Below, piece after piece: positions 1 to 15,638 of a DNA stretch of 64,000 nucleotides. The position numbers were made by a program, and so were the translations under genes. Position 1 is the first letter of the stretch. Each line of letters starts with the position of its first letter. This stretch comes from an uncultured bacterium (GTDB lineage Bacteria; Patescibacteriota; Minisyncoccia; UBA6257; GWB1-50-10): assembly GCA_903847915.1 (NCBI GenBank), contig CAINEW010000022.1, positions 1,268 to 65,267 on the forward strand, written 5' to 3'. Below the pieces are notes generated by a model, which saw only the letters and a list, made by a program, of their open reading frames with translations, was not told the origin of the DNA and made no database searches.

Positions 1-12
1 TTAACCGGAACG

Positions 13-771
13 ATGTGGGTAGTGCTTAGTGCGTGTATTGTGGCAATATTTGTCGTAATATTAACACTTCACTCCTCTATCAATCCACAAATCAGTCCAG
101 TACTTGTAGCGGGCGCTGTTATTTTACCAGATGACGCCAAAAACATTTTCCAAGGGATTGTGTTTGCAATCGGTGCTGAATTAGTTTTTGGACTTGTGCT
201 TGGCATCTTATGTGTGATTGATATCCATATAGGATTCGGCGGAACTCTGCTTTATTTGTTAGTTTTCTATATACTCATCTTTTTAGGAATGAGTAGAAAA
301 GGAGATCATCAAAAAACAGCAGGATTCATGATAGCAATGGTGATAATTACATTGATTATATTTACTGGTGTATATATTACAAAAGAATATTTCCCAGAAA
401 TTCTTCAACGAAAATCAACCGCGACGGTCAATGCGGAAACGCAGACGGCAATCGGAGATGTGACAAATATGCAGGAGCATGTAATTTCTTTTCAGAAAGG
501 TGTTCCTAAAAGAATTCTTTTGCCTCCGTTAGAATCTTCTCGTTTCGTTCCTACATATACGATAGAGATGATGGTAAAGGACTATAACGGTTCATGGCTA
601 TCTTACGAGATCGATTCTGATGGAAAGATCTATAGGATGAATAACGGGACAAGAATATTGGCAGTAGACGAAAATGGTCGGAATGCTATTGGTACCCTTG
701 CGGAACCAGCAGTAACGATCATTCCGAAAGAAGATTGCGAAGTACACGTTTTTACTTGGCGTAAAAGTTAA
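13..771 (+). CDS. hypothetical polytopic membrane protein
   Basis: 252-aa ORF; N-terminal half has several hydrophobic helices and the C-terminal half is soluble. No recognisable motif. Confidence 0.5.
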   Translation: MWVVLSACIVAIFVVILTLHSSINPQISPVLVAGAVILPDDAKNIFQGIVFAIGAELVFGLVLGILCVIDIHIGFGGTLLYLLVFYILIFLGMSRKGDHQKTAGFMIAMVIITLIIFTGVYITKEYFPEILQRKSTATVNAETQTAIGDVTNMQEHVISFQKGVPKRILLPPLESSRFVPTYTIEMMVKDYNGSWLSYEIDSDGKIYRMNNGTRILAVDENGRNAIGTLAEPAVTIIPKEDCEVHVFTWRKS

Positions 772-855
772 GGAAAAAACAACGATGAATAACAAAAATC
801 CGTAAAGAACAACTTTACGGATTTTTTTGTTGACCGAAATGATCGTGAGACCACA

Positions 856-1170
856 TTATCGTCCCCTCAAAATATTTGTGACGAGTGTTTTAATGCCAGT
901 AGAGATTAAAACTATTGCGGCGGCAGAAAAGGTATAAAGTAGGATTTTTTGTGCTTGTGATACTTTATCAGTATTATCTCCTGCTGTCACAAAAAGATAC
1001 GCAGCATAGAGAAGAGAAACTACTGTTGCAAGCCAAAAGAACGTAAATGCATATCCTACAATTCTTACAAAAACACTCTCCGCTTCCCCAAGAGTGCCAA
1101 ACACTGCAGCAGAAGAAATAAGGGGAAAAATAACTACGATTCCAACAATGATTATCAAAAACCACTTCAT
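856..1170 (-). CDS. TrbC/VirB2-like (T4SS-type) pilin family small membrane protein, paralog 1
   Basis: 104 aa; signal/TM helix, then a second TM carrying the motif LLYAAYLFVTAGDN...LISTGIKTL shared with the 1172-1537 ORF. 1-nt spacing to the neighbouring ORF. Confidence 0.6.
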   Translation of the reverse strand: MKWFLIIIVGIVVIFPLISSAAVFGTLGEAESVFVRIVGYAFTFFWLATVVSLLYAAYLFVTAGDNTDKVSQAQKILLYTFSAAAIVLISTGIKTLVTNILRGR

Positions 1171-1171
1171 T

Positions 1172-1537
1172 TTATTGGCCGCTCAAAACATTGCCTGCAA
1201 GACCCTTTAACCCAGTGGAAAGCAGGGCGACGCCCGCACCAATAAGACCATACATAAGATAATCCTTTGCTTTCTTTGTGGCATCTTCATCTCCTCCAGA
1301 GGTTACATATAAGTAAGCTGCATAAAGAAGCATAACAACCGTAAGAATCCAAAACGCGGTAATAAGATATCCAAGAATCGTTCTTACCCATCCCATAAAG
1401 CTACCAATACTCTGAAAGTTTTCACTCGGAGTTTCTGTATTAGGAATAGTACCGCCAAATTGAGCAGACACGAATGAAGGAACAATAAGTATTGCTAAAA
1501 AAGCAATTAATGCAAACGAAGATAATATTTTTTTCAT
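1172..1537 (-). CDS. TrbC/VirB2-like pilin family small membrane protein, paralog 2
   Basis: 121 aa; signal peptide (…SFVSAQ); motif LLYAAYLYVTSGGDED...LLSTGLKGL nearly identical to paralog 1. Confidence 0.6.
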   Translation of the reverse strand: MKKILSSFALIAFLAILIVPSFVSAQFGGTIPNTETPSENFQSIGSFMGWVRTILGYLITAFWILTVVMLLYAAYLYVTSGGDEDATKKAKDYLMYGLIGAGVALLSTGLKGLAGNVLSGQ

Positions 1538-1645
1538 AATTTAAGTATATTTATTTTTTTACACTATCATCTCTTATTCTAAATAGAGTATAAATCTATA
1601 AAGAAAAGAGCATACTCGACCTTTCGCAATGGGGAAATGATGTCC

Positions 1646-2062
1646 TCACGGAGTGAGAATACTCGTAATCAGTGAGGCAAAACCCCATCCAACCAATATT
1701 ATAGCATATCCTATCACGGTATACTGAATTGTCTTTAATCCGTCCTTATATTTCGTTTCATTGCCTCCCGCAAAGATCATCTGAAACGCGCCATAGAGGA
1801 TCATCGCAACGGCAATCGGTGTCGCGATTTCCGTCATCCACTTGATTATCTTTTGGAGCAAGTCAGGAATCGTATCTGCATCTGATCCCAAGGGATTAGG
1901 GATGGTGACTACATTTCCCGGTTGATTCATCTGCTCATCCGGCTGATTAGTATGTTCATCTGGGGCATCTTGAGCTAGGGAATGTTTGATGAGTGACGCA
2001 GAAGAAAAAGCAAGAGGAGTGAGAATGAGTATTGCAAGAGATAGCGAGAGAAGTAATTTCAT
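1646..2062 (-). CDS. TrbC/VirB2-like pilin family small membrane protein, paralog 3
   Basis: 138 aa; signal peptide, acidic Pro/Gln-rich spacer, then the same two-helix C-terminal module (MILYGAFQMIFAGGNET...VGWGFASL). Confidence 0.55.
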   Translation of the reverse strand: MKLLLSLSLAILILTPLAFSSASLIKHSLAQDAPDEHTNQPDEQMNQPGNVVTIPNPLGSDADTIPDLLQKIIKWMTEIATPIAVAMILYGAFQMIFAGGNETKYKDGLKTIQYTVIGYAIILVGWGFASLITSILTP

Positions 2063-2125
2063 CTGATTTATTTTAGTATACTTCTGATTATTATTTATGC
2101 AACAATACTGAAAAATATAACAAAA

Positions 2126-3208
2126 CTATTTCGTCACGCTTGCGGGATTATTAGAGGCAGAAACAGTAGGTGTGGGGCAAGAAATCTGTTGCCAAGGAAA
2201 CTTAAAGCCATCACTCACAAGGAAATGCATCACGGTGTTGATAATCGTCCACGAAAGGAGCACTACGGCAATTCCTTTCACCGCATTCCAAATCGTTTTT
2301 TGTGCGTCGCTCAATTTTCCACTTGCGCCAGAGATCATAAGATTCAAGGCGCCCCAGACAATATAGCCGACCGCGATAAAGAGTGTGCCATACGTCAATA
2401 TATTAATAATGTTGCGGACGACAATAAGCGCATCACATAATCCGCAAGGAATCGCCGTGGTTGGAGTACCCATGCCTGTGGCACCCTCTTCTCTACTTGG
2501 TCCCCCGCTCGGGCCCTGACAGAGCGTACCATTCCAGATATTAAACGCCCCCCCACTATTTAGAGGTTGTAGCCCCCCTGGTTGAATACCTGTGCCTATT
2601 ACAAATTGCTGGAGTGGTCCAACAAATTTTCTCCCGTATGGAGTGTATCCAAATACTCCAAGATTCTTAATCATAAATGATCCGCCAAGAGTAGTAGAGA
2701 AATATCCATCCGCGTCTGTTTGTGTTGACCCCACGACATTTTTCTGATCGTCTTGAAAATCAATGCGCGTGTTGCTAAAACCACGCCCAAGCTGACCTCT
2801 AACCATTTGTCCTCTATTTCCTCTTCCATCGTCAGTGGGGGTAGGCGTCATGATGAAATTTGCAATATGATACGGCGCACTCACAATCACCGCTTGTGAA
2901 GCATCCGTCGGTCCCTCCCCTCCGCCACTATAGAACGTGGTTTTAAACCCTGTGCCAGAAAATTGCAATTGATAGAGCCCGCCTGCAACAAGATTATCAA
3001 TCGCAAAATGACCTTGTGCGTCTGTGGTTGCCGATCCTTGAGGATTAGCACCTTGAGGGATCGCCGTAACACTTATTTGTGCGGCAGGCGTAGACCCACT
3101 ACGATAGACTGTACCGTCAATTGATGCGGGAGAGGCAAAGGCGCTCAAAGAGAAAAGAAGAAAACCAAAAATGAAAACAATGTGGGGAATTAAAAATTTT
3201 TTTTTCAT
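2126..3208 (-). CDS. secreted carboxypeptidase-regulatory-like beta-sandwich domain fused to a pilin-type C-terminal membrane module
   Basis: Signal peptide MKKKFLIPHIVFIFGFLLFSLSAFA, so the start is probably at 3208 rather than 3259. N-terminal DGTVYRSGSTPAAQISVTAI...GHFAIDNLVAGGLYQLQF resembles CarboxypepD_reg. The C-terminus (CGLCDALIVV...IVWGALNLMISGASGKLSDAQKTIWNAVKGIAVVLLSWTI) is homologous to the three small pilins. Confidence 0.55.
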   Translation of the reverse strand: MKKKFLIPHIVFIFGFLLFSLSAFASPASIDGTVYRSGSTPAAQISVTAIPQGANPQGSATTDAQGHFAIDNLVAGGLYQLQFSGTGFKTTFYSGGGEGPTDASQAVIVSAPYHIANFIMTPTPTDDGRGNRGQMVRGQLGRGFSNTRIDFQDDQKNVVGSTQTDADGYFSTTLGGSFMIKNLGVFGYTPYGRKFVGPLQQFVIGTGIQPGGLQPLNSGGAFNIWNGTLCQGPSGGPSREEGATGMGTPTTAIPCGLCDALIVVRNIINILTYGTLFIAVGYIVWGALNLMISGASGKLSDAQKTIWNAVKGIAVVLLSWTIINTVMHFLVSDGFKFPWQQISCPTPTVSASNNPASVTK

Positions 3209-3209
3209 A

Positions 3210-4505
3210 TTATTGAGTGAGTAATGAAGTAATTGTTTGTGCGGCATGAGAAAGCGCATCCGAAGGATTGGATTGATTGGAAATGACGAGCCCTATCACA
3301 CGAGAAAATGTTTCAGCAACGGATTCAGCACTCGGCTGTAGCCACGAGCGCGCAATAAGCGCTTGGCGCGCAAACACGCCCGTGTGCGGATCGTTCAAAT
3401 GTTTTGCAATCAATGCACGAAGTGCAGGAGGATTTTTAGTGATCGCAAAAGAGGCGTCGGCCACTTGGGTGTTCGTCGTCATCATACGAATGAACTCCCA
3501 CGCAAGCGAAGGATTCACACTTGTGCGTGAAACGGTATAACCCCAATAATTTGCTACACTCAAAGGTTTGTTTGCGCTTTCCACTTGTGGCACAGGCGCG
3601 ATATCAAAATTAAGAAACGCATTCTTTTTTATAAGTGATGCTTCTGCGGAGGCATAATCAAGCACCATCGCCACTTTTTCTCCGGCAAAATCCTCACGCG
3701 AACGCATTCCCTCATTCCATGTATAACTTTCTGTGCGCGTATCGGCAAATTGAGTATAAAAACGGAGAGCGTCTGCTCCTTGACTGGTACTAAAGCTCGC
3801 TTGTGTGCCTTCAGGATTCGTCATCGGCACACCATTTTGCATCATGAGGAGCGTAAGAATATCCGAGGCGTTTGCCACACTTTCTTCGGTGCCTCCAAGC
3901 GCAATAGCTGAACGGCGAAGCACACGCGAGGCATCGGTGAGAGTAAGACGTGGAACGGCACGTGTGAGCTCCGTCCATGTGGTAGGAACAGTAAGCGCGG
4001 ATTGGTCTAATAAATCACGATTGTAATAAAGGGCGAGAGTATCTATGGAAAGTGGAAGAGCGATAATCTGTCCTTGTGAAATAAAATCGTGTTCAACCAC
4101 TTGCGGAAATGAGGCGCGGAGCATCGCGGGAGTAAACAGTGCTTGAGGAATCGGGGTTATTTTATTGAGCCATTTTCGCGTGCCCCTATGCGAGAGCATA
4201 AATAAATCGGGGCTATTGCCAGAGGCGAGCGCATCAAGCAGCGCGGATTCGTATTGAGACACACTAGGAAATCCGCGATACGTAATCTCTACCCCCGGAT
4301 ACGTTTTTTTAAATTCTTGAAACGCGGGCTCATACCCTTTTGCATTCTCGCTCACTCCCCAGAACGAAAGTTTTGCGGTAATTTTTGCGGCAGGTGTGTT
4401 GCAGGATTGCAACCCCGGTGCGATGCATGTAAAAAGAAGCGCGCCATAAATAACAACAAGAGCGACACACGCAAATACAATTAATTGAGATGTGGTAAGA
4501 CGCAT
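3210..4505 (-). CDS. extracellular solute-binding protein (family 1, sugar-type ABC substrate-binding protein)
   Basis: 431 aa; N-terminal TM/lipo-signal and overall SBP_bac_1-like sequence. The stop is 1 nt from the start of the downstream pilin-fusion gene. No permease or ATPase genes lie nearby. Confidence 0.6.
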   Translation of the reverse strand: MRLTTSQLIVFACVALVVIYGALLFTCIAPGLQSCNTPAAKITAKLSFWGVSENAKGYEPAFQEFKKTYPGVEITYRGFPSVSQYESALLDALASGNSPDLFMLSHRGTRKWLNKITPIPQALFTPAMLRASFPQVVEHDFISQGQIIALPLSIDTLALYYNRDLLDQSALTVPTTWTELTRAVPRLTLTDASRVLRRSAIALGGTEESVANASDILTLLMMQNGVPMTNPEGTQASFSTSQGADALRFYTQFADTRTESYTWNEGMRSREDFAGEKVAMVLDYASAEASLIKKNAFLNFDIAPVPQVESANKPLSVANYWGYTVSRTSVNPSLAWEFIRMMTTNTQVADASFAITKNPPALRALIAKHLNDPHTGVFARQALIARSWLQPSAESVAETFSRVIGLVISNQSNPSDALSHAAQTITSLLTQ

Positions 4506-4550
4506 AAATCAATCTAAACAAGTCACCTCTCTATAATACACTATGAGAAG

Positions 4551-4655
4551 ATGAAGCTCCACAACCTTATGTTGTATCTTCTGCGGAATCCGCCGAAGCA
4601 CCCTCCTTCGCTCTTCAAATTATGGAGGGTTCACCTTCATATGTATTCATGGACT
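4551..4655 (+). repeat. conserved ~100-nt motif copy 1 (ATGAAGCTCCACAAC...TTCTGCGGAATCCGCCGAA...CTTCAAATTATGGAGGG)
   Basis: About 75% identical to 22070-22175. Starts 14 nt after a TATAAT at 4532-4537 and begins with the mini-ORF MKLHNLML. Lies in the gyrA-SBP intergenic region on the strand opposite both genes. Confidence 0.5.
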
Positions 4656-4688
4656 TACGCCCATAGTACCTTGCGAAGGTGGATAAAA

Positions 4689-7496: not shown

Positions 7497-8159
7497 TTAT
7501 TCGTGTGCGAGCACCACGACCCTCATTGCTCCCGGGGTAATTTCTTTTTTCTTAATCACTAATTTTTCTTCTTCGGTGCGGTCTACCTGATTCATTTCTT
7601 TAAGGAAATTTGCAAGAGTTTTTTTATCAAATAAGGTAGGAATCACGACTCCCGGCTCAATCTGACGGATGAGTTTTGCACACGGATGGGGCGCAAGATA
7701 TTCTTCTGAGCCACCCGGTACCACAAGAATATCAACCCCCTGAAGTGCCTCTTGAATATCTGGATTAGGCTCTTTTGAAAGATGTCCCAAAATACCAATA
7801 GAAATATCATCCATCACCATATGATAAATAGTGTATTCTTTTCCATTCGTATGCGCGCTCTGCCACCCCTTAATCGGAATCCCATTCACTTCATATTCTC
7901 CCTGATGTTCAATCTGAAATGGCTCACGGGTTTCAAGTGCCGAAAAAGGAGAGGGTGAAATCGTAGAAAGCACCGCATTCGCACCCTTGAATGAGCGTTG
8001 ATTAAGCGGATCAATAAGGACGACCTGACTCCCTGTTTGGATTTTGAGTGAATTCTCTCCCTGAAAAGTAATAATCATAAGTAAAAAACAACCTCGTCTA
8101 TACGTTCCTCTAAGTATACCTTGATTTCTCTTGCAATTCAATACGATTTCATGGTACAC
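7497..8159 (-). CDS. hypothetical protein, Lactamase_B_3-like (MBL-fold related) without the HxHxDH motif
   Basis: 220 aa. The pattern ITFQGENSLKIQTGSQVVLIDP...GVDILVVPGG resembles metal-dependent hydrolase UPF0173-type proteins, but the canonical metal ligands are not obvious. Confidence 0.3.
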   Translation of the reverse strand: MYHEIVLNCKRNQGILRGTYRRGCFLLMIITFQGENSLKIQTGSQVVLIDPLNQRSFKGANAVLSTISPSPFSALETREPFQIEHQGEYEVNGIPIKGWQSAHTNGKEYTIYHMVMDDISIGILGHLSKEPNPDIQEALQGVDILVVPGGSEEYLAPHPCAKLIRQIEPGVVIPTLFDKKTLANFLKEMNQVDRTEEEKLVIKKKEITPGAMRVVVLAHE

Positions 8160-8170
8160 TCCCCAGTACT

Positions 8171-9256
8171 ATGGCAGATGAAGTGCAAACAATAGACATC
8201 GCACAACTCCTCAAAAACTCTCCCGGGGCGTTTTCGCGTCTCAAAGTGGGCGATTTGGTGGAAGGGACAATTATTGAAAAAGGGGCAAGCCGCATCACGG
8301 TAGACCTTGGCAAAAACGGCACGGGGGTCATGTACCGTGGTGAGATTCAAAATGCCCGCGAACTCGTCCGCGACTTGAAACTCGGCGATGTGGCGCACGG
8401 CAAAGTGGTCTCGTTAGACAACGAAGAGGGCTATGTGGAACTTTCGCTCTCCGAAGCAGGCAAGCAAAAATCATGGGACGAGATTAAAGAAATGTATGAA
8501 AAAGGTGATCCGATTACCGTCAAGGTAAATGGATGTAATAAGGGAGGGCTCACCGCCCCCTTGGCTGGGCTTCTCGCGTTTATTCCAATCTCCCAACTTG
8601 CAAACGATAACTATCCTCAAGTGGAAGACGGCGATAAAGATAAAATTATCGCAGAGCTCACCAAACTAATTGGAAAAGATATTACGGTAAAAATTATTGA
8701 TGCAAATCCCCGCACGAATAAATTAATTGTCTCCGAACGCGATGCAGTGCAAATTAATCCAGAAGAATTACTCAAAAATTATCAAGTGGGTCAAACGATT
8801 GAAGGTATTGTTTCCGGTATTGCGGACTTCGGCGTGTTTGTGCAATTTACCGATAATCCCGCCGTGGAAGGATTGGTGCACGTCTCCGAACTCTCCTATC
8901 GCCTCGTGGATAATCCGAAGGAAATGGTGAAAGTGGATCAAGTAGTGAACGCAAAAATTACAGAAATCAAAGACGGCAAAATCGCGCTCTCCATGAAGGC
9001 GTTAGAGGCGGATCCGTGGCCTGCGATTGCAGAGCGCTATCAAAACGGACAGGAAGTAAAAGGCACGGCATATAGCTTCAATCAATTCGGCGCGATTGTG
9101 AATTTAGATGCGACCGCACAAGGCATGGTGCATGTCACAGAATTCGGTGGATTGGACGAAATGAAAAAACAACTCTCCTTGGGTAAAGAATATAATTTTA
9201 CCATTGAATCCGTGAACCTCCCCCAAAAACGCATCACTCTCAAACTTAAGAAATGA
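8171..9256 (+). CDS. rpsA: 30S ribosomal protein S1 (short, four S1 domains)
   Basis: 361 aa with repeated S1-fold motifs (GDLVEGTII..., GQTIEGIVSGIADFGVFVQF..., GQEVKGTAYSFNQFGAIV...). Confidence 0.8.
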   Translation: MADEVQTIDIAQLLKNSPGAFSRLKVGDLVEGTIIEKGASRITVDLGKNGTGVMYRGEIQNARELVRDLKLGDVAHGKVVSLDNEEGYVELSLSEAGKQKSWDEIKEMYEKGDPITVKVNGCNKGGLTAPLAGLLAFIPISQLANDNYPQVEDGDKDKIIAELTKLIGKDITVKIIDANPRTNKLIVSERDAVQINPEELLKNYQVGQTIEGIVSGIADFGVFVQFTDNPAVEGLVHVSELSYRLVDNPKEMVKVDQVVNAKITEIKDGKIALSMKALEADPWPAIAERYQNGQEVKGTAYSFNQFGAIVNLDATAQGMVHVTEFGGLDEMKKQLSLGKEYNFTIESVNLPQKRITLKLKK

Positions 9257-11585: not shown

Positions 11586-12001
11586 AATTTCGGGAGGATC
11601 AGGATCAGTAGTCCGCCCGGCTGACGCTAGTCGGACAGGCTTAGTGGAAGCTTTAGCGAAGGCAGGTACCTCGGTGTTGATGATTTCGTTTATATTAGGT
11701 CTGGATCAGTAGCTTAGTGGTTAAAGCTCCGAGCTTATACCTCGGCGACCGAAGGTTCAAATCCTTCCTGATCCACAAGCGTCTTACTTGCCTCGCCGAA
11801 GCTTTAGCGAAGGCAGGTACACGCTAGGTTCCAGGTTCGAATCCCGGCATGCCCACACGAGCACATAGCTCGTATTATCTAATTAGGGCGGTTAGCTTCG
11901 GCCCAAGGCCGATCCGCCTAGGGCGGACAGCGGTACCCGCCAGAATGACTTGTCGGGCTGGAGTCGGGCAGGGAGCAACTTTTTTACACGTTATCTAATT
12001 A
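11586..12001 (+). repeat. mosaic tRNA-fragment / repeat region surrounding tRNA-Ile and tRNA-Val
   Basis: The first 10 nt of tRNA-Ile (GGATCAGTAG) are duplicated at 11604. The 23-mer TATCTAATTAGGGCGGTTAGCT (Val-tRNA 5' flank plus start) is duplicated at 11874 and 11988. There are two copies of GAAGCTTTAGCGAAGGCAGGTAC (11648, 11799) and a partial copy of the GTACCCGCCAGAATGACTTGTCGGGCTGG core also seen at 53.4 and 57.7 kb. Confidence 0.6.
11703..11775 (+). tRNA. tRNA-Ile (anticodon TAT/UAU)
   Basis: Hand-folded. Acceptor GGATCAG/CTGATCC, D-stem GCTT/AAGC, anticodon stem CCGAG/CTCGG with loop CTTATAC (U33, A37), T-arm GAAGG-TTCAAAT-CCTTC, discriminator A. No encoded CCA. Confidence 0.7.
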
Positions 12002-14018: not shown

Positions 14019-15638
14019 ATGAAACATCTTTTGGTATTTTTGATGCTTTTTATGGGTGTCACTCTCAACGCACAGTGGGTTTCAGATCCCACCGTGAATA
14101 CTCCACTTGTGACAGGTAATTATGATGAGTTCTCGCCTATCATGGTTCCGTGCGCAGGAGGGTTTTATGTCGTGTACAAGAGAGATAATTTTCTTGTCCC
14201 CGCATATTTCGTTCAAAGATTTAATGTGTTGGGTTATCCGTGTTGGCAAGCGCCGATACGGATTATAGACACACTCTACGAACAGGATGATAACGCCGTG
14301 GCGTTCTCTGATGGAAAGCAAGGTGTCGTAATCGGCATGGGAGTGTGGCTAGATCGCGAACGGATTATTGCGCAACGTATTGATTCAAACGGCGCACGTC
14401 GCTTTGGCAATAATGGCACACTACTTTGCACCGCATCATCTACACAAAAAAATCCGGAAGGCATCATTCTTGATGACTCTCTCATTTTTTTCGCATGGGA
14501 AGATTATCGTGCGAGTGAAAATGATGTGTACGGTGCAATGCTTGATATGAACGGCAATCTCAAATGGTCATCTTCCGGCAAGGCGCTATGCACTGCAGGA
14601 GGAACACAAAGAGATATCGCACTCGCACGCGGGAACAATTCAATTATTCTTGTGTGGCGCGACGAACGTTCGTCTGCTCCTGGTATCTACGCACAAAGAG
14701 TTTCTGCAGAAGGAACGACGATGTGGCAGATAAACGGAAATAAAGTGGGGCTTGATTACAATCCTTACAATGTACATGTTCTTGCGACCACATTTGGAAT
14801 CTATATCGGATGGACGGGAATCACCGATTTCGGTTCGTATCCCGATATACGATTCAGAAAAACAACATGGAATGGAGATACGCTTTTAGAAAGGCGTTTT
14901 GTGACTCACGGCGTGCAAAAGAATATTCAATTCTTTTTTGTGCCGGACAGTACTTTGCGATTCCTCGCGTTGTACGAACAAAATGATTCTCTAATGGCAG
15001 GATCGTTCTATGACGATACGGTGACGCAATTACATTCGTCATTACTCGTAAAGCAAAGTGAACCGCATTACGCGTTCGCGCGAAGCGATACGGCGCTTAC
15101 GGTGGTATGGGAAGATACGCGATTTGGAGGAAAAGATATCTATGGACAATCGTTCAATTTATTTTCATTACAACGATTATGGGAGCAAGGTGGTGTGCCA
15201 ATTTCCTTACGAAGTGGCAACCAAACAAACCCAGCAATCGTGCCAATAGAAAATGGATATGTGGTAGTATTTCAAACGCCAACCAATCTTCAGTCCGATA
15301 TTTATGGTCAAAAACTAAATCAGGACGGAACGTTGGGTATGATAACAAATGTGAATGGTGAAGAAAATAAACCACGTACATCTGAATTATTGCAAAATTA
15401 TCCGAATCCATTCAATCCCATCACTACCATTCACTATGTCCTCCCCCGCACCACATTTGTCACACTTAAGGTGTTTAATGTGATAGGTCAGGAAGTAGCG
15501 ACGTTGGTACGCGAGCAAAAAGAGTCAGGAAATCAGAGTGTAGTATTTGATGCCTCACTCCTTACTTCCGGAATCTATTATTATTGTTTAAGCACTGATT
15601 ATTTCACCGAAACCAAAAAAATGGTGCTGGTGAAATAA
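14019..15638 (+). CDS. secreted beta-propeller-repeat protein with T9SS type-A C-terminal sorting domain
   Basis: Signal peptide MKHLLVFLMLFMGVTLNAQ. Five or six repeats of roughly VxWxDxRxxxxxIYAQR...G (PD40/TolB-like). The C-terminus LLQNYPNPFNPITTIHYVLPRTTFVTLKVFNVIGQEVATLV matches the Por_Secre_tail consensus. Confidence 0.7.
   Translation: MKHLLVFLMLFMGVTLNAQWVSDPTVNTPLVTGNYDEFSPIMVPCAGGFYVVYKRDNFLVPAYFVQRFNVLGYPCWQAPIRIIDTLYEQDDNAVAFSDGKQGVVIGMGVWLDRERIIAQRIDSNGARRFGNNGTLLCTASSTQKNPEGIILDDSLIFFAWEDYRASENDVYGAMLDMNGNLKWSSSGKALCTAGGTQRDIALARGNNSIILVWRDERSSAPGIYAQRVSAEGTTMWQINGNKVGLDYNPYNVHVLATTFGIYIGWTGITDFGSYPDIRFRKTTWNGDTLLERRFVTHGVQKNIQFFFVPDSTLRFLALYEQNDSLMAGSFYDDTVTQLHSSLLVKQSEPHYAFARSDTALTVVWEDTRFGGKDIYGQSFNLFSLQRLWEQGGVPISLRSGNQTNPAIVPIENGYVVVFQTPTNLQSDIYGQKLNQDGTLGMITNVNGEENKPRTSELLQNYPNPFNPITTIHYVLPRTTFVTLKVFNVIGQEVATLVREQKESGNQSVVFDASLLTSGIYYYCLSTDYFTETKKMVLVK

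What the first reader, a model, noticed from the sequence alone, without database searches (positions are those of the whole stretch)
856..4505. Five-gene minus-strand operon: solute-binding protein, beta-sandwich/pilin-anchor fusion and three paralogous TrbC/VirB2-like pilins
All five genes are separated by 1-110 nt on the same strand (SBP 4505→3210, fusion 3208→2126, pilins 2062→1646, 1537→1172, 1170→856). The three small proteins share a two-helix module (…LLYAAYLYVT(S/A)GG(D/N)…L(I/L)STG(L/I)K(G/T)L). The 360-aa protein carries a CarboxypepD_reg-like beta-sandwich and Cys-containing linker upstream of the same module. This looks like a minor pilin or tip adhesin built on the pilin scaffold. 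No secretion ATPase or other T4SS machinery is encoded nearby. A sugar-type SBP with no permease or ATPase partner leads the operon, which is an odd association and could indicate a surface appendage with a ligand-capture subunit.
Basis: partly seen in the sequence, partly recalled or inferred. Interest (0 to 1): 0.55.

Follow-up and report, generated by a model that had tools for sequence, protein, structure and literature searches.

The report
Sugar-binding protein leads pilin gene cassette
An ultrasmall (Patescibacteria-type) bacterium carries a conserved operon in which a membrane-tethered sugar-binding protein is followed by four differentiated VirB2-like secretion-system pilins, the first decorated with an adhesin-like domain; the link may help explain what these bacteria's essential but unexplained pilus system does.

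Summary
Five co-oriented minus-strand genes lie at 856-4505, bounded by a gyrA-proximal intergenic region and a strong terminator hairpin.

The three small proteins and the C-terminus of the 360-aa protein are true homologues of the Patescibacteria VirB2-like pilin family (Pfam PF18895 and TrbC). Tandem arrays of such pilins are already published (Wang 2023; Quinonero-Coronel 2025).

I did not find the following points in those papers:
- **Conserved SBP lead gene.** An oligosaccharide-type solute-binding protein (SBP) immediately precedes a pilin array in 14 of 16 distant Patescibacteria loci and in all 10 closer relatives examined. None has an ABC permease or ATPase, or a recognisable VirB4, nearby.
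- **Fixed subunit order.** The order is SBP, then a "4-Cys" pilin, then an "NPLG" pilin, then generic pilins. The copies are therefore differentiated subunits, not interchangeable paralogues.
- **The 360-aa protein is the 4-Cys pilin.** This subfamily carries varied ectodomains: CarboxypepD_reg here, and CARDB, SLT lysozyme or Cys-rich modules elsewhere.
- **A natural fusion.** One metagenomic contig encodes SBP and 4-Cys pilin as a single ORF.

Best reading: the SBP acts as a glycan receptor coupled to a heteromeric pilin assembly that a T4SS encoded elsewhere would build. I rate this a new variant of a known kind, of moderately high interest.

The parts
4506..4688 (-). Intergenic region between the gyrA stop and the SBP start. 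It contains a possible extended -10 element (TGTATTATA, 4540->4532), about 28 nt upstream of the ATG.
   Evidence: Read directly from the sequence. The consensus promoter scan did not list it, so this is weak evidence.
3210..4505 (-). Membrane-tethered solute-binding protein of the oligosaccharide (MalE-like, CUT1) type, 431 aa. It has an N-terminal hydrophobic helix (aa 5-26), a flexible linker, then a complete SBP fold.
   Evidence: SBP_bac_1 111.8 bits. AF2 pLDDT 93.1. The best Foldseek PDB hits are oligosaccharide SBPs, E 5e-26 to 1e-22, TM 0.7-0.83. More than 950 homologues at E<=1e-10; those that carry a source name are labelled Patescibacteria, or just 'bacterium'. 11 invariant residues, 8 of them aromatic.
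2126..3208 (-). Decorated 4-Cys pilin, 360 aa: signal peptide, two beta-sandwich domains, then a complete 4-Cys VirB2-like pilin unit. Its start lies 1 nt after the SBP stop codon.
2930..3124 (-). CarboxypepD_reg-like beta-sandwich domain (aa 29-93 of the 360-aa protein).
   Evidence: Pfam PF13620, 51.6 bits against a cut-off of 32.3. Homologous repeats occur in very large multi-repeat proteins. AF2 did not resolve it.
2651..2896 (-). Second beta-strand-rich domain (aa ~105-186).
   Evidence: AF2 predicts strands E105-186 at pLDDT 66-76. There are only faint Big_6/Big_1 Pfam hits and non-significant Ig-like Foldseek matches.
2171..2545 (-). 4-Cys pilin unit (aa ~222-346): NIWxGTxC, variable segment, PCxLCD, helix 1, polar loop, helix 2, FPWxxIxC. 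The cysteines are at aa 230, 255, 258 and 344.
   Evidence: Alignment A2, with C255, C258 and C344 and three Trp invariant in 20 sequences. About 130 of the top 150 representative hits match this region at 29-49% identity. The AF2 helical hairpin H257-292/H298-330 has block-mean pLDDT of about 81-96.
1646..2062 (-). Position-2 'NPLG' VirB2-like pilin (p3), 138 aa. It has a signal peptide, the motif IPNPLGS near the mature N-terminus, and two hydrophobic helices.
   Evidence: T4SS_pilin 48.7 bits, TrbC 26.9 bits. An NPLG-type pilin holds the second position in most related loci. 45% identical to the position-2 pilin of L036.
1172..1537 (-). Generic VirB2-like pilin (p2), 121 aa.
   Evidence: T4SS_pilin 25.2 bits, just below the cut-off. 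BLASTP 3e-06 to p3 and 8e-22 to p1.
856..1170 (-). Generic VirB2-like pilin (p1), 104 aa. It is a paralogue of p2 (40% identity) and starts 1 nt after the p2 stop.
794..826 (-). Intrinsic-terminator-like hairpin (14-bp stem followed by a T run) ending the operon. It is palindromic, so it could also serve the convergent gene 13-771.
   Evidence: sequence.

Best explanation
This is a chromosomal 'SBP-led VirB2-like pilin cassette' of a Patescibacteria (Paceibacteria-type) genome. It appears to be one transcription unit encoding five exported, membrane-associated proteins.

**The parts**
- **SBP:** an oligosaccharide-type solute-binding protein tethered to the outer face of the membrane.
- **4-Cys pilin:** its extracytoplasmic N- and C-terminal tails carry four conserved cysteines. 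It serves as a scaffold for displaying ectodomains, here two beta-sandwich, adhesin-like domains.
- **NPLG pilin,** followed by two generic pilins.

**Shown here**
- The family memberships.
- The topology elements (signal peptides and two-helix hairpins).
- The conserved gene order.
- The absence of local ABC or T4SS partners.
- The existence of a single-ORF SBP::4-Cys-pilin fusion.

**Inferred mechanism**
1. The pilins are inserted by Sec.
2. A VirB4/VirB6 T4SS encoded elsewhere extracts and assembles them into a heteromeric surface fibre or stalk.
3. The generic and NPLG pilins form the body. The 4-Cys pilin is a low-copy adaptor or tip subunit that presents binding or lytic domains.
4. The SBP docks on, or sits beside, the 4-Cys pilin. 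There it acts as the glycan receptor of the apparatus, either recognising host-surface oligosaccharide or capturing a host-derived sugar at the conduit. It does not feed a local ABC importer.
For: **Pilin membership:**

**SBP fold:**

**Conserved adjacency, starting from the SBP**
- 14 of 16 Patescibacteria loci with SBPs only 29-34% identical carry 1-11 pilin-module genes immediately downstream on the same strand. Of the other two, one contig ends at the SBP and the other, the most divergent SBP, has no pilins.
- Six relatives at 38-47% identity (L030, L031, L032, L034, L038, L039) show the synteny GyrA-SBP-pilins.

**Conserved adjacency, starting from the 4-Cys pilin:** 5 of 5 homologues examined have the SBP directly upstream.

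**Tight coupling:** SBP stop and pilin start overlap or lie no more than about 30 nt apart in most loci, and 1 nt apart in the window.

**Flanks differ while the cassette persists:** gyrA lies upstream in the window's clade, and a GalU-like NTP_transferase in four distant loci scanned; eight more have a same-sized ORF there. This argues for selection on the cassette itself.

**Rosetta-stone fusion:** P0143 (568 aa) is SBP_bac_1 plus T4SS_pilin in one ORF within the same synteny. No hidden signal peptide or frameshift is visible in the other frames.

**Fixed positional order:** Cys-rich/CxxC pilin, then NPLG pilin, then generic pilins, seen in 23 loci.

**The 4-Cys pilin as a display scaffold:** of 131 top homologues, 75 are plain, 41 have a C-terminal extension, 6 an N-terminal extension and 9 both. 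The extensions include CARDB, SLT lytic transglycosylase and the SBP.

**No local partners:** no ABC permease or ATPase and no VirB4 in the window or in the +/-10 kb flanks of relatives.

**Literature:** the pilin array of Southlakia is essential (PMC10633639). T4SS pilins are among the most highly expressed secreted genes in Paceibacteria co-cultures (PMC10936435).
Against: - No pilus, SBP-pilin contact or ligand has been observed; everything mechanistic is inferred from synteny and one fusion.
- The fusion rests on a single 3.9-kb contig assembled from a public sequencing run (Logan assembly).
- The genome's T4SS could not be located. The window sits at a contig end and whole genomes could not be scanned.
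- Orphan SBPs may be common in Patescibacteria. The Shapirobacteria locus L017 has an orphan SBP with no pilins, so lacking a local permease is not by itself special.
- In Saccharimonadia (Southlakia) the essential array has no SBP, so the SBP is not a universal component.
- The fusion's first beta-sandwich was not resolved by AF2, and fold search gave nothing significant.
- Glycosylation genes (PMT/PMT_2, GalU-like) recur near the cassette. This could point to a different, envelope-glycan role for the SBP.
Confidence: 0.5

Rival explanations
1. The SBP is an ordinary receptor of a sugar ABC importer whose permease and ATPase genes lie elsewhere in a scrambled, reduced genome. It sits next to the pilins only because both are abundant envelope proteins expressed from a strong promoter region. 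There is no physical or functional coupling.
For: The SBP has a complete, well-conserved MalE-like fold with invariant aromatic residues typical of sugar pockets. Orphan SBPs exist elsewhere in Patescibacteria without pilins (L017). Southlakia's pilin array lacks an SBP.
Against: The adjacency survives across lineages with 29-47% SBP identity and different flanking genes. The genes are translationally coupled or abutting. All 5 of 5 4-Cys pilin homologues examined have the SBP upstream. A single-ORF SBP::pilin fusion exists. No permease was seen in any of more than 20 loci.
Confidence: 0.2
2. The pilin-like proteins never form an extracellular fibre. They remain in the membrane as two-helix subunits of a hetero-oligomeric complex that is the SBP's cognate membrane partner. 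This would be an SBP-dependent channel or signal transducer, possibly independent of a T4SS. SBP-to-membrane-domain fusions in known ABC importers offer an analogy.
For: The SBP::pilin fusion resembles known fusions of SBPs to their translocator domains (established knowledge of the OpuA and GlnPQ types; fusion). No T4SS genes lie near the cassette in any locus. Monoderm T4SSs generally lack pili (PMC12102498, PMC12857230). The closest curated family is the mycoplasma ICE 'pilin-like' protein, for which no pilus is known.
Against: No energising component is encoded in the cassette. In Southlakia the homologous array sits inside the T4SS cluster (PMC10633639). Large ectodomains and lytic SLT domains on the 4-Cys pilin fit surface display better than a channel.
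Confidence: 0.15
3. The array is a set of interchangeable major-pilin variants used for antigenic or host-range variation, as proposed for Patescibacteria arrays and known for Bartonella and Anaplasma VirB2 paralogues. On this reading the decorated protein is just one variant.
For: Pairwise identity within the array is low (25-40%), matching the 25% mean reported in PMC12102498. Copy number varies from 1 to 11 among loci.
Against: Positions 1 and 2 are orthologous across distant lineages, with their own conserved motifs: 4-Cys/CxxC and NPLG. This indicates differentiated, simultaneously required subunits. Only the distal generic copies vary in number.
Confidence: 0.1

Closest known systems
VirB2-like pilin arrays of Patescibacteria T4SS (Southlakia epibionticum SEML1_0014-0019; 441 arrays surveyed by Quinonero-Coronel et al. 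2025)
   Same: Same Pfam family (PF18895, with weak TrbC). Tandem co-oriented genes, low pairwise identity, chromosomal location, Sec signal peptide plus a two-helix hairpin.
   Different: Here the array is detached from any T4SS genes. It is led by an SBP_bac_1 protein and has a fixed subunit order with a decorated 4-Cys first pilin. The papers I could read mention neither an SBP nor a Cys-pilin class.
Canonical VirB2/TrbC conjugative pilins with the VirB5 tip protein (Agrobacterium VirB, RP4 Trb)
   Same: Small pilin with a long signal peptide and two hydrophobic helices. The idea of a minor or tip subunit with an adhesive role applies to both. T-pilin and TrbC are head-to-tail cyclised (established knowledge); the four conserved Cys on the N- and C-tails of the 4-Cys pilin could join the two ends by disulfides instead (inference).
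   Different: The organism is a monoderm. The TrbC HMM score is just below its cut-off (26.9 vs 27.9 bits). Profile search found no solved VirB2 structure and no VirB5 homologue was detected. The putative minor subunit is itself a pilin paralogue, unlike VirB5.
Mbov_0395 / MMCAP2_0565 pilin-like conjugal transfer proteins of Mollicutes ICEs (NCBIfam NF045849)
   Same: This is the closest curated family by NCBIfam. It weakly hits p2, p3 and 13 of 20 4-Cys pilins. A tblastn hit falls on the Mesomycoplasma hyopneumoniae gene. It also belongs to a monoderm, MPF-FATA-type context.
   Different: All scores are below the curated cut-off of 40 bits. Those proteins are not known to occur as arrays or with an SBP.
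Orphan SBPs attached to T4SS biology: PrgZ/TraC pheromone-binding proteins of enterococcal conjugative plasmids, and ChvE of Agrobacterium (established knowledge, recalled, not tested here)
   Same: In each case a solute-binding protein is encoded without its own permease, or acts apart from one, and links an external ligand to a T4SS-related process.
   Different: PrgZ and TraC are family-5 peptide binders that use the chromosomal Opp permease. ChvE is a monosaccharide binder that signals through VirA. Neither is encoded with pilin genes or fused to one.
SBP-translocator fusions in ABC importers (OpuA and GlnPQ type; established knowledge)
   Same: The SBP is covalently fused to the membrane component it works with, as in the SBP::4-Cys-pilin ORF P0143.
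   Different: The membrane partner here is a two-helix pilin-like protein, not an ABC permease, and no ATPase is present.
Minor-pilin or pseudopilin operons of type IV pili and T2SS (FimU-PilVWXE, GspHIJK; established knowledge)
   Same: An ordered operon of differentiated pilin paralogues, one of which carries a large extra domain.
   Different: The fold family and assembly machinery are unrelated.

Membership tests
T4SS_pilin (PF18895) / TrbC-VirB2 (PF04956) pilin family | Significant match to the family HMM | tested here: met
   p3 scores 48.7 bits against a cut-off of 26.6, and TrbC 26.9 against 27.9. p2 scores 25.2, just under the cut-off. p1 has no Pfam pilin hit but is 40% identical to p2 (E 8e-22). 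The fusion scores 17.5 bits in Pfam but 46.4 bits against an independent 40-sequence pilin profile, versus at most 8.2 for 1000 shuffles.
T4SS_pilin (PF18895) / TrbC-VirB2 (PF04956) pilin family | Sec signal peptide followed by two hydrophobic helices joined by a short polar loop | tested here: met
   Hydropathy scan. AF2 hairpin H257-292/H298-330 at high pLDDT. AXA-like cleavage motifs read from the sequences.
T4SS_pilin (PF18895) / TrbC-VirB2 (PF04956) pilin family | Encoded with, or dependent on, a VirB4-containing T4SS | tested here: not met
   No VirB4, VirD4 or VirB6 in the 64-kb window or in the +/-10 kb flanks of relatives. Presence elsewhere in the genome could not be tested. The literature reports pilin genes away from virB4 in about 40% of assemblies (PMC12102498).
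T4SS_pilin (PF18895) / TrbC-VirB2 (PF04956) pilin family | Polymerises into an extracellular pilus | not testable with these tools
   Requires cryo-ET, EM or biochemistry.
Patescibacteria VirB2 arrays (Quinonero-Coronel 2025 definition) | 2-11 pilin genes in tandem or separated by one non-pilin gene, with low pairwise identity (mean 25%, maximum 54%) | tested here: met
   Four pilin-module genes in tandem at 25-40% identity. The definition is quoted.
ABC-importer solute-binding protein, family 1 (CUT1 / MalE-like) | HMM match and two-lobed SBP fold | tested here: met
   SBP_bac_1 111.8 bits. AF2 pLDDT 93. Foldseek E down to 5e-26 against oligosaccharide SBPs.
ABC-importer solute-binding protein, family 1 (CUT1 / MalE-like) | Encoded with cognate permease pair and ATPase | tested here: not met
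   None in the window or in any of more than 20 related loci. Distal partners cannot be excluded.
ABC-importer solute-binding protein, family 1 (CUT1 / MalE-like) | Binds a sugar ligand and delivers it to a permease | not testable with these tools
   Only conservation of aromatic residues was seen.
VirB5-type pilus-tip protein | Sequence or fold similarity to VirB5/TraC | tested here: not met
   No VirB5-type family appeared among the Pfam or NCBIfam hits at E<=1, and there was no significant fold match. The resemblance is functional only.
CarboxypepD_reg (PF13620) beta-sandwich domain | HMM match above the gathering score | tested here: met
   51.6 bits against 32.3, at aa 46-110 of the 377-aa frame. 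The fold was not confirmed, because AF2 pLDDT is below 50 there.
4-Cys pilin subfamily (defined here) | NIWxGTxC ... PCxLCD - helix 1 - loop - helix 2 - FPWxxIxC, as the first gene after the SBP | tested here: met
   All the motifs are present in the window protein. C255, C258 and C344 and three Trp are invariant in alignment A2. The position is confirmed.

The most novel reading that the evidence does not exclude
The SBP-led cassette is the receptor end of a T4SS-derived import or contact conduit. An oligosaccharide-binding SBP docks on a disulfide-stapled adaptor pilin and gates or targets a VirB2-like fibre that takes up, or senses, host-derived glycans. That would make it a new class of SBP-dependent, non-ABC surface apparatus, and it would give the essential Patescibacteria T4SS pilus a concrete ligand.
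Probability: 0.15. Interest if true: 0.9.

Novelty: new variant of a known kind. Interest (0 to 1): 0.62.

Why it matters
Patescibacteria make up a large share of bacterial diversity. Their T4SS with a VirB2-like pilin array is essential in the one genetically tractable species, yet its function is unknown.

A conserved sugar-type binding protein that is genetically coupled to the array, and occasionally fused to it, offers a concrete and testable handle:
- The SBP can be expressed and screened on glycan arrays.
- The SBP and 4-Cys-pilin pair can be modelled or pulled down.
- The varied ectodomains on the 4-Cys pilin (adhesin-like, lytic) point to where host contact occurs.

The fixed positional order also argues against viewing the arrays merely as antigenic-variation sets.

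Tried and rejected
- **Word-indexed homologue searches.** Searches with the whole fusion and with its C-terminal 154 aa found only the protein itself, or nothing. The exhaustive representative search was needed.
- **Structure of the fusion.** Overall confidence was low (pLDDT 62), domain 1 was unresolved, and Foldseek against the PDB returned nothing at E<=0.001. The fold-level VirB2 test therefore failed technically.
- **Profile of 4-Cys pilins against PDB sequences.** No VirB2 or TraA structure was found.
- **tblastn of p3 against plasmids.** Only two hits, both at E=0.3.
- **Looking for VirB4 in large unannotated flank ORFs of related loci.** None was found. L010's 684-aa ORF is a multi-TM protein of unknown family.
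- **The ~287-aa ORF upstream of the SBP in distant loci.** I tested whether it was an ABC permease. It is a GalU-like NTP_transferase.
- **The Shapirobacteria SBP (L017).** I tested whether it had canonical permease neighbours. It does not: they are methyltransferases and an ABC-F ATPase.
- **Replication origin at the ~8.16-kb strand switch.** There is no cluster of DnaA boxes.
- **Frameshift artefact in the SBP::pilin fusion.** The other reading frames are full of stop codons and contain no signal peptide.
- **Lipoprotein status of the SBP.** A lipobox-like LF[TS]C occurs only in the window's nearest relatives (12 of 53), so the family-wide tether is a Cys-less hydrophobic helix.

Full report
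**1. Observation**

- SBP, 3210-4505 (431 aa)
- a 360-aa protein, 2126-3208 (the open frame extends to 3259, but independent gene calls on identical metagenome contigs use the 360-aa start)
- p3, 1646-2062 (138 aa)
- p2, 1172-1537 (121 aa)
- p1, 856-1170 (104 aa)

The gaps are 1, 63, 108 and 1 nt. A 14-bp-stem hairpin followed by a T run (826->794) comes directly after the last gene. Upstream lies the 183-nt gyrA-SBP spacer, which contains a TGTATTATA element that I read as a possible extended -10 (weak evidence).

**2. Family assignments** (Pfam)

| Protein | Result |
|---|---|
| SBP | SBP_bac_1, 111.8 bits |
| 360-aa protein | CarboxypepD_reg 51.6 bits; sub-threshold T4SS_pilin 17.5 bits at the C-terminus |
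| p3 | T4SS_pilin 48.7 bits (cut-off 26.6); TrbC/VirB2 26.9 bits (cut-off 27.9) |
| p2 | T4SS_pilin 25.2 bits |
| p1 | no Pfam pilin hit; 40% identical to p2 (E 8e-22) |

- p2 vs p3 gives 3e-06, and the fusion C-terminus vs p3 gives 8e-07.
- To avoid circularity I built a profile from 40 generic pilins of other genomes. It scores the fusion's C-terminal 155 aa at 46.4 bits, while 1000 shuffles reach at most 8.2 bits.
- All four pilin-module proteins have an N-terminal Sec-type signal peptide and two hydrophobic helices.
- AF2 predicts a confident helical hairpin, H257-292/H298-330, with block-mean pLDDT of about 81-96.

The observation and the pilin assignment therefore stand.

**3. Genomic setting**

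- The window is housekeeping chromosome of a reduced genome. It carries gyrA, S1, FtsH, GlmS, RecA, FtsK, NusA, H+-PPase, many aminoacyl-tRNA synthetases and 13 tRNAs.
- SBP homologues that carry a source name are labelled Jorgensenbacteria, Brennerbacteria, Paceibacterota or Patescibacteria, or just 'bacterium'. I infer a Paceibacteria-type organism.
- The 64 kb contain no VirB4, VirD4 or VirB6, no type IV pilus genes, no ABC permease or ATPase, and no further pilin module.

**4. What is already known**

Tandem arrays of VirB2-like pilins are published for Patescibacteria:
- 441 arrays of 2-11 genes with a mean identity of 25% (PMC12102498).
- The six-gene array of Southlakia epibionticum lies inside the T4SS cluster and is essential (PMC10633639; review PMC12857230).
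- T4SS pilins are among the most highly expressed secreted genes in Paceibacteria-methanogen co-cultures (PMC10936435).

The 'three pilins' part of the finding is therefore a new member of a known kind. None of these papers mentions a solute-binding protein with the arrays, and Southlakia's array has none.

**5. The SBP link is conserved**

*Starting from the SBP*
- A scan of one genome per species found 16 Patescibacteria loci whose SBPs are only 29-34% identical to the window's SBP.
- In 14 of them, 1-11 pilin-module genes follow immediately on the same strand. In one the contig ends at the SBP. In one (Shapirobacteria, the most divergent SBP) there are no pilins.
- Six closer relatives (38-47% identity) reproduce the window's whole neighbourhood, FtsH-S1 <> Lactamase_B_3-small ORF-GyrA-SBP-pilins x2-5.
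- In the distant loci gyrA is replaced upstream by a ~287-aa ORF; the four scanned are a GalU-like nucleotidyltransferase. The flanks change while the SBP-pilin junction persists.

*Starting from the pilin*
- All five homologues of the fusion's pilin unit whose contigs I could read have the SBP directly upstream.
- SBP stop and pilin start overlap or lie within a few nucleotides in most loci.
- No locus shows a permease, an ABC-importer ATPase or a recognisable VirB4 within the flanks.

**6. A natural fusion**

- P0143 (568 aa; a 3.9-kb contig assembled from the public sequencing run SRR12113384) is a single ORF with SBP_bac_1/SBP_bac_8 followed by T4SS_pilin (49 bits).
- GyrA lies upstream and an NPLG pilin downstream.
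- At the junction only the tail of the pilin signal peptide remains (…LMQRR-VSRFNIFPVAEAQ-VLNIWRNT…).
- The other two frames are full of stop codons and hold no hidden signal peptide.
- The topology is consistent: the SBP's N-terminal anchor, the SBP outside, then the pilin hairpin.
- This is a single example and needs read-level confirmation. It is nevertheless the kind of Rosetta-stone event expected for proteins that work in contact.

**7. The array has ordered, differentiated subunits**

The exhaustive representative search shows that residues ~220-350 of the fusion belong to a large subfamily: about 130 of the top 150 hits, at 29-49% identity.

The subfamily signature (alignment A2) is:
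signal peptide - NIWxGTxC - variable - PCxLCD - helix 1 - GG(S/N) loop - helix 2 (W..IVNT) - FPWxxIxC.
- Three invariant Cys and three invariant Trp.
- A fourth Cys after NIWxGT in most members.
- In the window protein the cysteines are at 230, 255, 258 and 344.

Both tails are extracytoplasmic in the VirB2 topology. I infer that disulfides staple the N- and C-tails together, which would be functionally reminiscent of the head-to-tail cyclisation of T-pilin and TrbC (established knowledge). This could not be checked because model coordinates are not exposed.

Across 23 loci the order is SBP, then a Cys-rich/CxxC pilin, then a pilin with an NP(L)G motif at its mature N-terminus (p3 here), then Cys-poor generic pilins in variable number. 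p1 and p2 are the only paralogous pair in the window. This pattern argues against the array being merely a set of interchangeable antigenic variants.

**8. The 4-Cys pilin is a display scaffold**

- Of 131 top homologues, 75 are plain (~130-150 aa), 41 have C-terminal extensions, 6 have N-terminal extensions and 9 have both.
- Identified add-ons:
  - CARDB plus SLT lytic transglycosylase (P0176)
  - SLT (P0183)
  - long Cys-rich modules (for example P0138, the positional orthologue in L034)
  - the SBP itself (P0143)
- The window protein inserts about 200 aa between the signal peptide and the NIW motif: a CarboxypepD_reg domain plus a second beta-strand domain.
- No other representative combines CarboxypepD_reg with this pilin. 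The exact architecture is unique so far, but the design principle is common.

**9. The SBP itself**

- AF2 gives a confident model, pLDDT 93.1: helix 5-26, a disordered linker, then a complete two-lobed fold.
- Foldseek's best PDB matches are oligosaccharide binders: Tlet_1705, cycloalternan-binding Lmo0181, GacH, mannobiose-binding protein (CpMnBP1), and maltodextrin, sophoro-, cello- and chito-oligosaccharide binders. E ranges from 5e-26 to 1e-22 and TM from 0.7 to 0.83. The sequence search agrees.
- The family is strongly conserved, with 49% mean column identity and 8 of its 11 invariant residues aromatic. This suggests a functional pocket.
- The membrane tether is a Cys-less hydrophobic helix in most members. 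A lipobox-like LF[TS]C appears only in the window's close relatives.

**10. Mechanism**

*Shown:* the family memberships, the topology elements, the conserved operon and its order, the absence of local ABC or T4SS partners, and one fusion.

*Inferred (confidence about 0.5 that the SBP and pilins are functionally and physically coupled):*
1. The pilins are Sec-inserted.
2. A T4SS encoded elsewhere assembles them into a heteromeric fibre or stalk.
3. The 4-Cys pilin is a low-copy adaptor or tip subunit that presents binding or lytic domains.
4. The SBP, tethered next to it or docked on it, supplies oligosaccharide recognition, for host-surface targeting or capture of host-derived glycan.

*Rivals:*
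- An ordinary ABC receptor with distal partners (0.2).
- A membrane-resident, SBP-dependent complex that forms no fibre (0.15).
- An antigenic-variation array (0.1).

*Unexplained:* glycosylation genes recur near the cassette. PMT follows the array directly in L030 and L038, PMT_2 occurs in L009 and L011, and a GalU-like gene sits upstream in four distant loci scanned. This might point instead to pilin glycosylation or an envelope-glycan role.

**11. Verdict**

The pilin array is a known kind. The SBP-led, positionally ordered cassette with a decorated 4-Cys adaptor pilin appears undescribed in the literature I could search, which is limited to open-access full text. I rate it a new variant of a known kind, interest about 0.6.

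Noticed in passing
L003 7119-7982, L008 7037-7906, L009 6996-7856, L016 2146-3030 (and same-sized ORFs in L004, L006, L007, L010-L013, L018): A ~287-aa ORF sits immediately upstream of the SBP-pilin cassette on the same strand in 12 distant Patescibacteria loci. The four scanned are a GalU-like sugar-1-phosphate nucleotidyltransferase (NTP_transferase); the others are judged by size and position only. In the window's clade gyrA takes that place.
   Followed up: partly
L030 12968-14521; L038 12739-14115; L009 15188-16849 (-); L011 4034-5557: PMT/PMT_2-family (GT39-like) glycosyltransferases directly follow the pilin array or lie a few kb from it in several relatives. L011 also has a Polysacc_synt flippase nearby. 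This may link the cassette to protein or envelope glycosylation.
   Followed up: partly
window ~8160 (between 7497-8159 minus and 8171-9256 plus): Gene orientation switches here, and the cumulative GC skew reaches its minimum around 6-8 kb and rises steadily to ~52 kb, as expected near a replication origin. However, the intergenic gap is only 11 nt, there is no cluster of DnaA boxes, and dnaA is not in the window.
   Followed up: partly
window 14019-15638 (+): A 539-aa protein carries a Por_Secre_tail (T9SS C-terminal sorting) domain at 37.9 bits. The genome otherwise looks like a monoderm Patescibacterium, where no T9SS is expected.
   Followed up: no
window 11703-11776 (+): A tRNA-Ile with anticodon TAT (UAU), an uncommon way for bacteria to decode AUA, lies next to a tRNA-Val just downstream of ftsH.
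   Followed up: no
L034 1774-5418: GyrA in this relative (GCA_018896875.1) is 1214 aa and contains an intein (Intein_splicing), directly upstream of its SBP-pilin cassette.
   Followed up: no
L005 5879-7000 and 8001-9401: Two SBP homologues lie close together on the same strand upstream of the pilin array in this locus.
   Followed up: no
window 13-771 (+); L002 826-1719: A convergent multi-TM protein (297 aa on the longer contig) with a C-terminal soluble domain has no significant family match. It shares the palindromic terminator with the pilin operon and is not conserved next to the cassette in relatives.
   Followed up: partly
window 1-2000 vs 2001-4000: The region holding p1, p2 and most of p3 is markedly more AT-rich (GC 0.389) than the region holding most of the SBP and fusion genes (GC 0.465). 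An AT-rich 108-nt spacer before p2 could hold an internal promoter.
   Followed up: no
P0168 (aa ~400-490), P0138, P0139, P0171, P0179, P0227, P0240, P0266: Many extended 4-Cys pilins share long, repetitive Cys-rich modules (motifs such as CGxSGxGxC and NTSDCxPPKxCC) on both sides of the pilin unit. These have no Pfam match. P0168 ends in a segment that looks like a metallopeptidase (HEAGTYSHANGYKID), judged by eye only.
   Followed up: no
L010 11512-13566 (-): A 684-aa protein with about 7 predicted TM segments in its C-terminal half and no Pfam match lies 1.6 kb downstream of the pilin array. It could be a divergent VirB6-like protein.
   Followed up: no
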